Assembly (NCBI RefSeq): GCF_050320075.1
Contig: NZ_CP190018.1
Reading direction: 5' to 3' (one strand)
Source of the DNA: Escherichia coli
GTDB taxonomy: Bacteria; Pseudomonadota; Gammaproteobacteria; Enterobacterales; Enterobacteriaceae
DNA length: 64,000 bases
Below are positions 43,301 through 46,300 of this stretch, piece by piece. The position numbers were made by a program. The stretch's first letter is position 1, and every line of letters begins with the position of its first letter.

Positions 43301-46300
43301 GAAAATTCATATGTGTTTAGATAAATTTTTTAACTACAAATGTTCTTACTGTCTTCGGAACAATTTTGTCGAGCCAGGTTGCGGACAATCGCCTGAACCT
43401 TTTCCTGTTCACATCGCCAGGCCTCATCAATAATTTTCGCGGCCCATGATGGAATATGCGGTGATAAGCGGTAATGAACCCACTTACCCTGCTTGCGATC
43501 CAGCAATAGCCCACTTTCACGCAGCAATGCCAGGTGGCGGGATATCTTGGGCTGCGACTGATCGAGGGCAGTACAGAGATCGCAGACGCATAATTCTCCC
43601 AGCTCGCTGAGCAGTAAAACGATGCCCAGACGGGTTTCATCAGCAAGAATTTTGAACAGTTGGATGGGTAACAGAAATGACATATTGCGCTCCTGATTGT
43701 TGCAGGTAGTGTCTCTCTTCGAAGCGGATAAGTCAAAAACATATATGACTTAACGAATGTGTAAGCGCAGAAGAAGGTAATAGGTGTGAATTTTGAGTTG
43801 GGTATTCATTTGAAAGGAGGTCTGAATCAGGACGTAAAAAAACCGACTTTGCGTCGGTTTTTTACTTTCCAGCCCTGAGTTGGTGGCTCTGGCCGGAGTG
43901 AGAATGCCCACATCTAACGGTTCAATACTATTAGCCAGTGGCTAACATTGCAAGCGTTAGCGATTTCTTCAGCTGGCGAAGGGACAGTTTGCTATACATG
44001 TTGGTGAAAGAGGATTTATATACTTTCATCGGGTCGCTGCCGTACCAGGCCTTGTCCAAATCCGGACGTAAAAAAACCGACTTCGCGTCGGTTTTTTACT
44101 TTGCAGCCCAGAGTTGGTGGCTCTGGCTGGAGTGAGAATGCCATCATCTAACGCATCAATGCTAATACCATACTGAAACTATTGCAAGGACATGCTGGTT
44201 TTATAACCTGTATGTACTGTATGATTATCCAGTTAGTTCTGAGGCATTTTCACTCTGGTAATGCGCATAAACGCTTTCAAAGTCCTGGTCAGAAGTACGG
44301 GTGGTGCCGTTAACTGATGCTCTGGTCGGAGTGAGAATGCCCACATCTAACAATGGGGCATGCGCCGTGACAGGCAGTGGATGAGTAAGCGGATGCATTC
44401 TCACTCCATCGCATGGAGAAAACGGGTGATTGATAAAGCAATCATCGTTCTTGGGGCGTTAATTGCGCTACTGGAACTGATCCGCTTCCTGCTTCAGCTT
44501 CTGAACTGATAGCGGAAACGTAGTTAAGGGCAAAGAGCACACCACTCTTTGCCCTTTAACATTTAACGCATGGTCACGAACTCTTCTGCCGCCGTCGGGT
44601 GAATGGCGACGGTATTGTCGAAGTCTTTTTTGGTCGCCCCCATCTTCAGCGCCACCGCGAAGCCCTGCAACATTTCATCCATACCAAAACCAATGCCGTG
44701 AATTCCGACAATCTTCTCTTCCGGTCCAACGCATACCAGTTTCATGCGGCACGGCTGGCGGTGAGTGGTGACGGCGGTATACATCGCGGTGAAAGAGGAT
44801 TTATACACTTTCACCTGATCGTCGCCGTACTGCTCGCGCGCCTGCGGTTCCGTTAAACCAACAGTACCAATCGGCGGATGGCTGAAGACCACGGTCGGAA
44901 TGTTGCTGTAATCCAGATGCTCATCAGGCTTGTTATTAAACAGGCGTTCAGAGAGACGGCGACCCGCTGCAACTGCCACCGGTGTCAGTTCCACTGCCCC
45001 CGTGTTATCGCCCACAGCGTAAATACCTTCAACGTTGGTATTTTGATATTTATCGACGACGATATAGCCTTTTTCGTTAGTTTTAACGCCAGCGGCTTCC
45101 AGGTTGATGTTGTCATTGGCAGGCTCGCGACCAATCGCCCAAATCAGGCAATCTACCGTTTCACTGCGACCATCTTCCAGCTCCAGCGTCAGGCTGCCGT
45201 CGGCATTTTTCACCACCGCTTTCGGGATGGCGTTGGTGTGCAGCTGCGGGCCTTCGGCGTTCATCACTTCGACCAGCGTTTCAGAGATCATCGGGTCGAA
45301 GCTGCGCAGCGGCGCATGTTTACGCACAAACAGATGCGTTTTCGCGCCGAGGCCGTTAATCACGCCCGCCAGCTCAACGGCGATGTAACCCGCGCCAACA
45401 ACCGCCACGCGCTCTGGCAAAGCAGGAAGGGCGAAGAAGCCATCAGAATCAATACCGTATTCCACGCCCGGAATATCCGGGTGGCTCGGACGACCGCCGG
45501 TGGCGATCAGAATATGATCGGCCGTGATGGTTTCGCCGTTTACCTCCAGCGTTTTGGCATCAACGAAGCGGGCAAAGCCTTTGATTACATCAACGTTATT
45601 TTTACCGAGCACGTTTTCATAGGAAGTATGAATACGGTCGATATAGGCGGTACGGCTGGCGATCAACGTTTCCCAGTTGAATTTATTTATAGTGGTATCG
45701 AAACCATAATCCGGACCGTACATGTGGATCGCTTCACGGATTTGCGCCGCGTGCCACATCACTTTCTTCGGTACGCAGCCGACGTTCACGCAGGTGCCGC
45801 CCAGCTCTTTGGCTTCAATCAGCGCGCATTTCTGGCCGTACATAGCCGCGCGGTTGATGGAGGCGATACCGCCGCTGCCGCCGCCGATGGCGATGTAATC
45901 ATAGTGTTTAGTCATGACAGAGTGTCCTTATCGTTGATTACCGCGATTGTAGCGCGAGACGTAATAGGTGCCAGCAATGGCTGCAATTACTCCGGCACGA
46001 TCCAGCTTACGGTGGCGTGCCCGGTGCCTGCCGGAACCAGTTTGCTGTGCAGCCACGGCAGCACGTTATTCATCTGCTGTTCCAGCTTCCACGGCGGGTT
46101 AATCACAATCATGCCGGAAGCGGTCATGCCACGGCGATCGCTGTCTGGCAGTACCGCCAGTTCAATTTGCAGAATTTTGCGAATGCCGGTCGCTTCCAGG
46201 TCGTGGATCATGCGCTTAATTTGCTGGCGCAACACCACTGGATACCACAGTGCGTAAGTGCCAGTGGCGAAACGTTTATAGCCTTCTGCTATCCCGCTGA

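What the first reader, a model, noticed from the sequence alone, without database searches (positions are those of the whole stretch)
43836..44155. Two tandem agr-type antisense RNA genes opposite the dinQ leader
Two units of about 85 nt, each ending in its own hairpin terminator on the minus strand, share the core gagtgagaatgcc..atctaacg. A third copy of that core in the opposite sense lies in the dinQ 5' leader (about 44320-44350), giving long antisense complementarity. This matches the described agrA/agrB arrangement.
Basis: partly seen in the sequence, partly recalled or inferred. Interest (0 to 1): 0.35.

Follow-up and report, generated by a model that had tools for sequence, protein, structure and literature searches.

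The report
Known agrA/agrB antitoxin RNAs of dinQ
These are the two already-described small antisense RNA genes (agrB and agrA) that keep the SOS-induced membrane toxin DinQ of E. coli switched off, so the finding is correct but ordinary, although this strain carries a minority sequence variant of the RNA-RNA recognition segment.

Summary
Window 43684-44562 is the E. coli arsR-gor intergenic region. Two 84-nt units (43834-43917 and 44068-44151, minus strand, 78/84 identical) each give a full-length match to Rfam AgrB (106 and 98 bits; threshold 40). Each has a sigma-70-like promoter, an unpaired 5' tail, a stem-loop and a terminator. A 33-nt core occurs three times (none expected by chance). 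The third copy is in the leader of LexA-controlled dinQ (ORF 44426-44509, NCBIfam DinQ equivalog). Unit 1 pairs with dinQ +88..+119 over 32 contiguous pairs; unit 2 pairs at 29 of 32. This is the published dinQ/agrAB type I toxin-antitoxin locus: already known.

Corrections: the three cores are direct DNA repeats, antisense only because transcription is divergent, and the units lie upstream of dinQ, not opposite it.

Beyond the finding: the 9-nt centre of the pairing region is hypervariable. Five dinQ target alleles cover 5392 of 5422 finished genomes (window allele 4.6%, K-12 allele 31%). Each is matched by one agr unit. In the commonest allele (41%) the matching unit is at the agrA position, the reverse of K-12. 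I found no report of this.

The parts
43834..43917 (-). agrB-position sRNA gene (84 nt): the cognate antitoxin RNA of this strain. It has a 5' single-stranded antisense tail (RNA nt 1-32), stem-loop 1 and a terminator hairpin (about 43837-43863).
   Evidence: Rfam AgrB 106.2 bits, model positions 1-84. Fold z = -4.8. 31 Watson-Crick pairs plus 1 G-U and 0 mismatches over nt 1-32 against dinQ +88..+119, duplex energy -70.3 kcal/mol.
43925..43953 (-). Promoter of the agrB-position unit: -35 TTGCAA (43953-43948), 17-nt spacer, -10 TAGTAT (43930-43925), transcription start at 43917.
   Evidence: Hexamer positions. Both hexamers are identical to K-12 in alignment A1. K-12 start sites were mapped by primer extension (PMC3567139). 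At 8 of 12 consensus matches it is below the cut-off of the simple scanner.
43993..44045 (.). Relic of the gor 3' coding region in the spacer between the two units. It marks the edge of an old tandem duplication.
   Evidence: 83% identical to gor 44778-44830. Local alignment score 61 against a shuffle maximum of 29. The reading frame gives [11 protein letters not shown] against Gor [11 protein letters not shown]. It ends 8 nt before the second repeat unit begins (44054).
44068..44151 (-). agrA-position sRNA gene (84 nt): a paralogue with imperfect complementarity to dinQ (non-pairs at RNA nt 8, 9 and 24).
   Evidence: Rfam AgrB 98.3 bits. Fold z = -3.6. 28 Watson-Crick pairs plus 1 G-U plus 3 non-pairs of 32, duplex energy -56.1 kcal/mol.
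44159..44187 (-). Promoter of the agrA-position unit: -35 TTGCAA (44187-44182), 17-nt spacer, -10 TAGCAT (44164-44159), transcription start at 44151.
   Evidence: This stretch is identical to K-12 in alignment A1.
44217..44232 (+). LexA operator (CTGTATGATTATCCAG) overlapping the dinQ promoter. dinQ +1 is the G at 44232.
   Evidence: CTG-N10-CAG match. Identical to K-12. +1 was placed from the published numbering, in which the GUG start is G195 (PMC5066626).
44232..44556 (+). dinQ mRNA. Elements: sequence 1 at 44247-44259, the +44 processing site at 44275, sequence 3 at 44398-44409, the Shine-Dalgarno GGAG at 44415-44418, and the terminator hairpin at 44526-44556.
   Evidence: Coordinates transferred from PMC5066626 through alignment A1. 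Folds of the +1 and +44 forms are. The terminator arms are inverted repeat I7.
44319..44351 (+). Antisense target in the dinQ leader (+88..+120), the third copy of the repeat. Its centre, 44336-44344 (+105..+113), is the hypervariable specificity segment.
   Evidence: family D2. Diversity peaks here: pi is about 0.39 against 0.034 elsewhere across 68 dinQ sequences.
44426..44509 (+). DinQ toxin ORF (GTG start, 27 aa, sequence VIDKAIIVLGALIALLELIRFLLQLLN as encoded).
   Evidence: NCBIfam NF041472 toxin_DinQ equivalog, 54 bits against a cut-off of 30. RefSeq annotates dinQ (WP_001295215.1) on the identical DNA in strain CFSAN061763.

Best explanation
The two units are the agrB (43834-43917) and agrA (44068-44151) genes of the chromosomal dinQ/agrAB type I toxin-antitoxin locus of E. 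coli.

How it works:
1. Each unit is transcribed leftward from its own sigma-70 promoter into an RNA of about 84 nt. The first 32 or so nucleotides are an unpaired antisense tail.
2. dinQ is transcribed rightward from a LexA-repressed promoter after DNA damage.
3. The primary dinQ transcript is translationally inert, because its 5' end folds back on +94..+120 and the Shine-Dalgarno sequence sits in a hairpin.
4. Removal of the first 43 nt frees +94..+106 to pair with +167..+178. This opens the Shine-Dalgarno sequence, and the 27-aa membrane toxin is made.
5. The agrB RNA binds +88..+119 of the processed mRNA. That restores the closed Shine-Dalgarno hairpin and creates an RNase III substrate, so the toxin stays off.

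What is shown here: the sequence anatomy, the family matches, the extent and strength of pairing, and thermodynamic retention of the switch.

What is taken from K-12 experiments (PMC3567139, PMC5066626): transcription, processing, RNase III cleavage and toxicity.

What is inferred: in this strain the arsR-proximal unit is the effective antitoxin (32 contiguous pairs). The dinQ-proximal unit pairs less well (3 non-pairs) and acts at most as a weaker partner.
For: 1. Rfam AgrB full-length hits of 106 and 98 bits against a gathering score of 40.

2. Context arsB-arsR / dinQ / gor. The intergenic region is 100% identical to strain CFSAN061763 and 92.4% identical to MG1655, both with dinQ annotated.

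3. DinQ NCBIfam equivalog at 54 bits.

4. Promoter hexamers, 17-nt spacers and the LexA box. These elements are unchanged relative to K-12.

5. Structure. The 5' tail is unpaired, stem-loop 1 has 2 pairs with compensatory changes, and the terminator has 1. Fold z-scores are -4.8 and -3.6.

6. Pairing. Unit 1 gives 31 Watson-Crick pairs plus 1 G-U of 32, at -70.3 kcal/mol. Unit 2 gives 28 plus 1 of 32, at -56.1 kcal/mol. Shuffles give -29 +/- 3.4.

7. The core occurs three times against 0 expected by chance.

8. Switch. The +1 fold shows the S1 fold-back and the closed Shine-Dalgarno hairpin. The +44 fold shows the long 2:3 duplex. Blocking 88-119 restores the hairpin.

9. Published experiments on the K-12 orthologues cover Northern blots, primer extension, UV sensitivity of the agrB deletion, SHAPE, in vitro translation and RNase III cleavage.
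Against: 1. There are no expression data for this strain.

2. The simple promoter/terminator scanner did not flag the agr promoters (8 of 12 consensus matches) or the terminators. For the terminators this is probably because its stem extension absorbs the U-tract into A-U pairs.

3. The antisense core differs from K-12 agrB at 6 of 9 central positions, so K-12 experiments transfer by analogy only.

4. The predicted difference in Shine-Dalgarno accessibility between the +1, +44 and agr-blocked forms is weaker here (0.27 / 0.35 / 0.19) than for K-12 (0.04 / 0.52 / 0.02).
Confidence: 0.93

Rival explanations
1. Only the arsR-proximal unit works. The dinQ-proximal unit (44068-44151) is a decaying, functionally irrelevant duplicate, as agrA was judged to be in K-12.
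For: 1. It has three non-pairs (RNA nt 8, 9 and 24) inside the 32-nt pairing region, and its duplex is 14 kcal/mol weaker than unit 1.

2. The Rfam alignment flags two non-canonical pairs in its stem-loop 1, and its minimum-free-energy fold is less well defined.

3. K-12 agrA did not repress translation or change SHAPE reactivity (PMC5066626).

4. In the plasmid homologue dqlB/agrB, a 4-nt mismatch abolished repression (PMC12365149).
Against: 1. Its promoter and terminator are intact and identical or near-identical to K-12.

2. It pairs better with its own dinQ than K-12 agrA does with K-12 dinQ: -56.1 against -47.2 kcal/mol, and 1 G-U against 4.

3. Finished genomes SCU-115 and A42 have an intact LexA-dinQ and a single unit with exactly the same mismatch pattern. 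That suggests this degree of pairing can suffice.

4. In the commonest E. coli allele, the unit at this position is the perfectly matched one.
Confidence: 0.5
2. The second, imperfectly matched unit is kept as a spare antitoxin against foreign dinQ or dinQ-like toxin alleles that arrive by recombination or on plasmids (an anti-addiction or immunity role).
For: 1. Genomes usually carry two units with different specificity segments, and the non-cognate unit often matches a dinQ allele found in other strains. At least about 1000 genomes carry a K-12-type unit without the K-12-type dinQ.

2. dinQ-like/agrB modules are common plasmid addiction systems (PMC12365149).

3. 324 plasmid records carry agr-like stem-loop and terminator sequence.
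Against: 1. Apart from three full-length records (one, H54, is a 4.9-Mb chromosome filed as a plasmid), plasmid matches to the window unit cover only the stem-loop and terminator part, not the antisense tail. No listed plasmid hit matched the core of this strain.

2. The pattern is equally explained by history, that is duplication followed by recombination among linked repeats, without any selection on the spare copy.
Confidence: 0.1
3. The repeats are untranscribed leftovers of a duplication, or ordinary intergenic repeats or terminators with no RNA function.
For: A gor relic between the units shows that the region arose by duplication and decay. The generic scanner found no promoter or terminator for the units.
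Against: 1. Full-length covariance-model matches.

2. Promoter hexamers conserved across strains.

3. Compensatory changes in the stem-loop across species.

4. The antisense segment and its target co-vary in 41 reliable loci.

5. The 15-mer of the stem-loop occurs nowhere else in the 64-kb window.

6. The K-12 transcripts were demonstrated experimentally.
Confidence: 0.03
4. The units encode small proteins (the ATG-initiated ORFs 43827-43913 and 44016-44147 on the minus strand).
For: Both units here contain an ATG at RNA nt 5-7 that opens ORFs of 28 and 43 codons with similar N-termini.
Against: 1. K-12 agrB reads TTAGATAAG at that place and has no ATG.

2. The ATG lies 4 nt from the 5' end with no Shine-Dalgarno sequence.

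3. The ORFs run through the terminator hairpin.

4. The original paper reports no ORFs in these RNAs.
Confidence: 0.02

Closest known systems
agrB/agrA-dinQ of E. coli K-12 (Weel-Sneve et al. 2013, PMC3567139; Kristiansen et al. 2016, PMC5066626; Rfam RF02891)
   Same: 1. Same locus (arsR-gor) and same gene order and orientation.
2. Same promoters, stem-loop, terminator, LexA box and DinQ peptide.
3. Same position of the target (+88..+119).
4. The cognate unit is at the arsR-proximal (agrB) position in both.
   Different: 1. Six of the nine central nucleotides of the pairing segment differ: AATGCCCAC here against AGAGTTCTT in K-12. They differ identically in agrB and in the dinQ target.
2. K-12 agrB would pair poorly with this strain's dinQ (-40.7 kcal/mol, 10 non-pairs of 36).
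3. The agrA-position unit is closer to its target here than in K-12.
4. The internal 2:3 duplex of dinQ is 13 perfect base pairs here (inverted repeat I5).
istR-1/tisB (E. coli SOS-induced type I toxin-antitoxin)
   Same: Divergent, non-overlapping sRNA. LexA-controlled toxin gene. Inert primary transcript activated by 5' processing. The antisense RNA binds the leader far from the Shine-Dalgarno sequence and triggers RNase III cleavage. (As compared in PMC5066626.)
   Different: No sequence relation. tisB uses a ribosome standby site, whereas dinQ uses mutually exclusive hairpins. There is no tandem second antitoxin copy with an intact antisense segment.
orzO/zorO and orzP/zorP; Sib/Ibs (multi-copy type I systems with discriminating antitoxins)
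   Same: Duplicated antitoxin RNAs whose short sequence differences in the pairing region determine which toxin mRNA they repress. (From my knowledge of Wen et al. 2014 and Han et al. 2010; not tested here.)
   Different: In those systems each antitoxin has its own toxin gene in the same genome. Here there is one toxin gene and two antitoxin genes, and the specificity differences are between strains (alleles) rather than between paralogous loci.
Plasmid dqlB/agrB addiction modules, e.g. on pOXA-48 (PMC12365149)
   Same: Homologous toxin family and the same agr-like sRNA architecture. About 35 nt of complementarity to the toxin leader. Base-pairing specificity was shown there by mismatch and compensatory mutants.
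   Different: Plasmid-borne and acting in post-segregational killing, with a single antitoxin unit. In the listed plasmid hits other than the full-length records, the antisense tail is unrelated to the window's.

Membership tests
AgrB sRNA family (Rfam RF02891) | Covariance-model score at or above the curated gathering score (40 bits) over the full model | tested here: met
   106.2 bits (43834-43917) and 98.3 bits (44068-44151), both covering model positions 1-84 of 84.
AgrB sRNA family (Rfam RF02891) | Architecture: unpaired 5' tail, internal stem-loop, Rho-independent terminator | tested here: met
   Minimum-free-energy folds with z = -4.8 and -3.6. The consensus structure has 3 pairs with compensatory changes across E. 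coli, E. albertii and C. werkmanii units. Unit 2 has two non-canonical pairs in stem-loop 1.
dinQ/agrAB type I toxin-antitoxin locus | [quoted passage not shown] | tested here: met
   arsR 43330-43683 (-), the units (-), dinQ (+), gor 44563-45915 (-).
dinQ/agrAB type I toxin-antitoxin locus | About 31 nt at the sRNA 5' end complementary to the dinQ 5' leader (K-12: 30/31 for agrB, 25/31 for agrA) | tested here: met
   Unit 1: 31 Watson-Crick pairs plus 1 G-U of 32. Unit 2: 28 plus 1 G-U of 32. Target at dinQ +88..+119.
dinQ/agrAB type I toxin-antitoxin locus | Toxin gene encoding the 27-aa DinQ peptide from a GTG start, under a LexA operator | tested here: met
   NCBIfam NF041472 equivalog at 54 bits. 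LexA box at 44217-44232.
dinQ/agrAB type I toxin-antitoxin locus | Own sigma-70 promoter for each sRNA | tested here: met
   TTGCAA, 17-nt spacer, TAGTAT or TAGCAT, placed 7 nt before the 5' end and conserved against K-12. This is sequence evidence only, and the generic scanner threshold was not reached.
dinQ/agrAB type I toxin-antitoxin locus | Constitutive transcripts of about 85 nt; repression of +44 dinQ translation; RNase III cleavage of the duplex; toxicity when the antitoxin is deleted | not testable with these tools
   Shown for K-12 only (PMC3567139 and PMC5066626).
dinQ/agrAB type I toxin-antitoxin locus | dinQ mRNA switch: sequences 1:2, 2:3 and 3:4 can form mutually exclusive helices | tested here: met
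   All four elements are present. The 1:2 helix is kept through G-U changes. The 2:3 helix is 13 perfect base pairs (I5). Folds of the +1, +44 and blocked forms follow the model qualitatively.

The most novel reading that the evidence does not exclude
The dinQ/agr locus is a polymorphic specificity system rather than a fixed pair plus a dead duplicate.

1. The 9-nt centre of the pairing region exists in at least five alleles in E. coli. Each dinQ allele is accompanied in the same genome by an agr unit carrying the same multi-nucleotide variant.

2. Which of the two gene positions holds the matching unit flips between lineages. In K-12 and in this window it is the agrB position. In the commonest allele (about 41% of finished genomes), in the ATAGTCGTC allele, and next to each dinQ-like (dql) toxin ORF in Citrobacter, it is the toxin-proximal agrA position.

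3. So 'agrA is a degenerate non-functional copy' would be a K-12 peculiarity.

4. Because target and antisense are direct DNA repeats read from opposite strands, gene conversion among the three copies automatically yields complementary RNAs. This gives a simple route to switching specificity without passing through an unprotected state.
Probability: 0.5. Interest if true: 0.45.

Novelty: already known. Interest (0 to 1): 0.2.

Why it matters
As stated, the finding re-identifies a characterised locus, so it adds nothing new beyond correct annotation. These two sRNA genes are absent from the RefSeq annotation of the matching genomes, where only dinQ is listed.

The side result could matter modestly for type I toxin-antitoxin biology.

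1. It suggests that experiments in K-12 mis-assign the roles of agrA and agrB for most E. coli.

2. About 5-15% of finished genomes (B2-type strains such as Nissle 1917) may have lost the promoters of both dinQ and the agr unit through recombination between the repeats. The lower figure is the 263 genomes that share the exact Nissle junction sequence. The upper figure is all 813 genomes of that allele class, and that class also includes intact loci.

3. The locus offers a natural series of matched and mismatched antitoxin/target pairs for studying how much complementarity an antitoxin RNA needs.

Tried and rejected
1. The scan of genome contigs with the 15-mer CAGAGCCACCAACTC was badly designed.

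2. The generic promoter/terminator scanner found neither the agr promoters nor the terminators. I located them by hand from the K-12 description and by folding.

3. The first literature query for variation was too loose, because dinQ was not required, and returned irrelevant papers. One search replaced it.

4. Metagenome contigs with a K-12-type dinQ target and only one, non-cognate unit looked at first like natural strains lacking their antitoxin. Mapping against K-12 shows they are exactly what collapse of the 58-nt exact repeat shared by the two units would give in a short-read assembly. I excluded single-unit metagenome contigs from the statistics.

5. Two two-unit metagenome contigs (L147, L175) have no well-matched unit. 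They may be chimeric assemblies of mixed strains and were left unexplained.

6. A weak match between 43967-43987 and the end of the dinQ ORF (15 of 21, family D5) might be a remnant of the lost dinQ copy, but it is within chance and I do not claim it.

7. Small-protein coding by the units was rejected because the ATG is absent from K-12 agrB.

8. The anti-addiction idea found no support in the plasmid search.

9. Allele counts in finished genomes come from near-exact 45-nt matches. They give frequencies, but not co-occurrence within a genome. Co-occurrence rests on 14 finished loci plus 27 two-unit contigs.
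Full report
**What is there**

The stretch 43684-44562 lies between arsR (43330-43683, minus strand) and gor (44563-45915, minus strand).

[quoted passage not shown] In both records RefSeq annotates only 'damage-inducible type I toxin DinQ' there.

A scan of 40000-48000 against all Rfam families gave two full-length matches to AgrB (RF02891). They lie at 43834-43917 (106.2 bits) and 44068-44151 (98.3 bits), both on the minus strand, against a gathering score of 40.

**Check of the observation**

- The two 84-nt units are 78/84 identical.
- Including flanks, the repeat is 114 nt at 89% identity with a 234-nt period.
- The 24-nt core GGAGTGAGAATGCCCACATCTAAC occurs at 43895, 44129 (2 mismatches) and 44328. 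All three are on the + strand, and none is expected by chance in 64 kb.
- Each unit folds into a 5' tail, a stem-loop and an 11-bp terminator hairpin followed by Us (z = -4.8 and -3.6).

First, the three cores are direct DNA repeats, and the RNAs are complementary only because the units and dinQ are transcribed in opposite directions. Second, the units are upstream of dinQ (5' ends 81 and 315 nt from dinQ +1), not opposite its leader.

**Anatomy**

On the minus strand each unit is preceded by TTGCAA, a 17-nt spacer, then TAGTAT (unit 1) or TAGCAT (unit 2), ending 7 nt before the RNA 5' end. These elements are unchanged relative to K-12, where the start sites were mapped by primer extension (PMC3567139).

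For dinQ:
- A LexA box (CTGTATGATTATCCAG) lies at 44217-44232.
- +1 is at 44232, placed from the published numbering.
- The antisense target is at +88..+120 (44319-44351).
- The Shine-Dalgarno GGAG is at 44415-44418.
- A GTG-initiated 27-codon ORF lies at 44426-44509 and matches the NCBIfam DinQ equivalog (54 bits, cut-off 30).
- A terminator hairpin lies at 44526-44556.

**Pairing**

| Pair | Pairs over agr nt 1-32 | Duplex energy (kcal/mol) |
|---|---|---|
| Window unit 1 / window dinQ | 31 Watson-Crick + 1 G-U, 0 non-pairs | -70.3 |
| Window unit 2 / window dinQ | 28 Watson-Crick + 1 G-U, 3 non-pairs (nt 8, 9, 24) | -56.1 |
| K-12 agrB / K-12 dinQ | 31 Watson-Crick, 1 non-pair | -62.7 |
| K-12 agrA / K-12 dinQ | 25 Watson-Crick + 4 G-U, 3 non-pairs | -47.2 |
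| Shuffled units | n/a | -29 +/- 3.4 (minimum -43) |

By position and by complementarity, unit 1 is agrB and unit 2 is agrA.

**Mechanism**

The mechanism is the published one.
1. The primary dinQ mRNA is inert, because its 5' end pairs with +94..+120 and the Shine-Dalgarno sequence is in a hairpin.
2. Cleavage at +44 lets +94..+106 pair with +167..+178, which opens the Shine-Dalgarno sequence.
3. agrB binding to +88..+119 re-closes it and creates an RNase III site (PMC5066626).

All four sequence elements are present here. The 2:3 duplex is 13 perfect base pairs (I5). Folds of the +1, +44 and target-blocked forms follow the model qualitatively, though with a weaker predicted contrast than in K-12. 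Transcription, processing, cleavage and toxicity are taken from K-12 experiments and were not testable here.

**Verdict on the finding**

The finding is correct and already known. Every sequence-level defining feature of the family was tested and met.

**What I did not expect**

Aligning the window with K-12 shows that 6 of the 9 central nucleotides of the pairing segment differ. They differ identically in the arsR-proximal unit and in the dinQ target: AATGCCCAC here against AGAGTTCTT in K-12. The dinQ-proximal unit carries a third version. K-12 agrB would pair poorly with this strain's dinQ (-40.7 kcal/mol).

*The sample.* I used 14 finished loci (13 E. coli, counting the window, plus E. albertii) and 70 metagenome contigs found with an invariant 32-mer of the dinQ leader. 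Diversity in dinQ peaks sharply at +105..+113, with pi about 0.39 against 0.034 elsewhere (the position labels in that output are shifted by +2).

*Allele frequencies.* Allele-specific 45-nt queries against 5,426 finished genomes give five target alleles that together account for 5392 of the 5422 genomes with the locus.

| dinQ target allele | Genomes | Share |
|---|---|---|
| AATGCCATT | 2232 | 41% |
| AGAGTTCTT (K-12) | 1682 | 31% |
| ATAGCCCAC | 813 | 15% |
| ATAGTCGTC | 418 | 8% |
| AATGCCCAC (this window) | 247 | 4.6% |

*Matching within a locus.* I counted only the 41 reliable loci (finished loci and two-unit contigs).
- The best unit has at most 2 non-pairs of 32 in 37 of them, while the other unit has 3-6.
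- Randomly reassigning targets among loci gives a mean of 2.44 non-pairs against 1.37 observed (0 of 2000 permutations reach the observed value).
- Because the sites are tightly linked and strains are related, this measures an effect and is not a probability.

*Position of the matching unit.* This depends on the allele.
- It is arsR-proximal for the K-12 allele (12 of 13 loci) and for the window allele (4 of 4, plus 1 near variant).
- It is dinQ-proximal for AATGCCATT (13 of 13, including finished genomes 94-3024, 98203 and E2865) and for ATAGTCGTC (4 of 4).

*Population-scale counts agree.* 1676 genomes carry the exact AATGCCATT segment at the agrA position, and 596 more are within two mismatches. 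By contrast, 2697 genomes carry the exact K-12-type segment at the agrB position, although only 1682 have the K-12 dinQ target. So at least about 1000 genomes have a K-12-like 'agrB' that mismatches their own dinQ at 6 positions.

*Functional relevance of mismatches.* In a plasmid homologue, a 4-nt mismatch abolished repression and a compensatory change restored it (PMC12365149).

*Literature.* I found no description of this allelic co-variation or positional swap in the 33 papers of the searchable library that mention both dinQ and agrB; I opened the five most likely to address it. T1TAdb only says it picks whichever of two predicted antisense RNAs pairs best. This absence is limited to that library.

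**Further layers**

- The variable segment is also the 5' arm of a local hairpin (+106..+130). Its 3' arm carries compensating polymorphisms, and its loop keeps CUAACA, which is complementary to the invariant agr 5' end UUAGAU.
- I infer that the conserved loop and tail make first contact, and that the variable stem sets specificity.
- C. werkmanii has seven Rfam-level AgrB units in tandem arrays and two DinQ-like ORFs. The unit next to each toxin gene is the matching one.

**Origin**

Between the two units lies a 53-nt relic of gor (43993-44045, 83% identical to 44778-44830; score 61 against a shuffle maximum of 29). It ends 8 nt before the second repeat unit starts.

This is the footprint of a tandem duplication of an [agr-dinQ-gor 3'] segment, followed by loss of one dinQ copy. 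On this reading the dinQ-proximal unit is the original partner of the surviving dinQ. The 2013 paper presumed a tandem duplication, and a term search of that paper (pseudogene, remnant, gor) found no mention of this relic.

The direct-repeat layout also explains the variants seen in finished genomes:
- one unit only (UTAK-6);
- Nissle-type loci, in which a unit is fused to the dinQ leader at the repeat, deleting the dinQ promoter, the LexA box and the unit's own promoter. 263 genomes share the exact junction.

**Status of the agrA-position unit in this window**

This remains undecided. It pairs better than K-12 agrA. It also has the same mismatch pattern as the sole unit of strains SCU-115 and A42, which keep an intact dinQ. 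But it has three non-pairs in the pairing region.

**Scores**

The finding as handed over is already known, so interest is low (0.2). The most novel reading not excluded, a polymorphic specificity system with positional role swap, gets probability about 0.5 and interest about 0.45 if true.

Noticed in passing
window 44336-44344 (dinQ +105..+113), 43903-43911 and 44137-44145; loci L001, L123-L129, L130-L204: The 9-nt centre of the antisense/target repeat is hypervariable. Five dinQ target alleles cover 5392 of 5422 finished E. coli genomes, and each is matched by one agr unit. The matching unit is at the agrA position in the commonest allele, the reverse of K-12.
   Followed up: yes
window 43993-44045: A relic of the gor 3' coding region (83% identical to 44778-44830) sits between the two units and ends 8 nt before the second repeat. 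This is the footprint of a tandem duplication of [agr-dinQ-gor 3'] followed by loss of one dinQ copy.
   Followed up: partly
L129 (E. coli Nissle 1917) about 900-1100; also L134, L135, L143, L170, L173, L194, L199: An agr unit is fused to the dinQ leader at the shared repeat. The dinQ promoter, the LexA box and the agr promoter are all deleted, yet the dinQ CDS is still annotated. 263 finished genomes share the exact junction 45-mer.
   Followed up: partly
L127 (UTAK-6); L128, L200, L201, L204 (arsC-adjacent loci): Some finished genomes have a single agr unit, consistent with unequal recombination between the direct repeats. In many of them arsR and arsB are absent and arsC abuts the locus.
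   Followed up: partly
window 44337-44361 (dinQ +106..+130): A local hairpin in the dinQ leader keeps CUAACA in its loop, complementary to the invariant agr 5' end. Both arms co-vary with the allele: polymorphisms at +124, +125 and +127 compensate for the variable segment.
   Followed up: partly
window 44526-44556: The hairpin between dinQ and gor (a terminator) differs from K-12 by a compensatory pair of changes: AGGGCAAAGAG/CTCTTTGCCCT here against AGGGCTAAGAG/CTCTTAGCCCT in K-12.
   Followed up: no
L006 4744-5797 and L007 675-992 (Citrobacter werkmanii contig BBMW01000020): Seven Rfam-level AgrB units lie in tandem arrays with about 115-nt spacing and different 5' tails, next to two DinQ-like ORFs. 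The unit adjacent to each toxin gene is the complementary one.
   Followed up: partly
window 44225-44404 (minus strand): A 59-codon ORF antisense to the dinQ leader is annotated as 'hypothetical protein' in some RefSeq genomes (L201, L203). It is probably a spurious call.
   Followed up: no
window 41468-41507: A REP-like palindrome gives sub-threshold matches to Rfam naRNA4 on both strands (29.7 and 24.4 bits against a gathering score of 59.5).
   Followed up: no
window 43827-43913 and 44016-44147 (minus strand): ATG-initiated ORFs of 28 and 43 codons start at RNA nt 5 of each unit. The ATG is absent from K-12 agrB, so they are unlikely to be coding.
   Followed up: partly
plasmid collection, hits H54-H65: 324 plasmid records carry similarity to the stem-loop and terminator part of the unit; in all listed hits except the full-length one (H54), the antisense tail is not covered. 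One 'plasmid' record (NZ_CP134663.1, 4.9 Mb) is evidently a chromosome.
   Followed up: no
L147 and L175 (metagenome contigs): These two-unit loci have no unit that matches the dinQ target well (3-6 non-pairs). They are either real unprotected haplotypes or chimeric assemblies of mixed strains.
   Followed up: no
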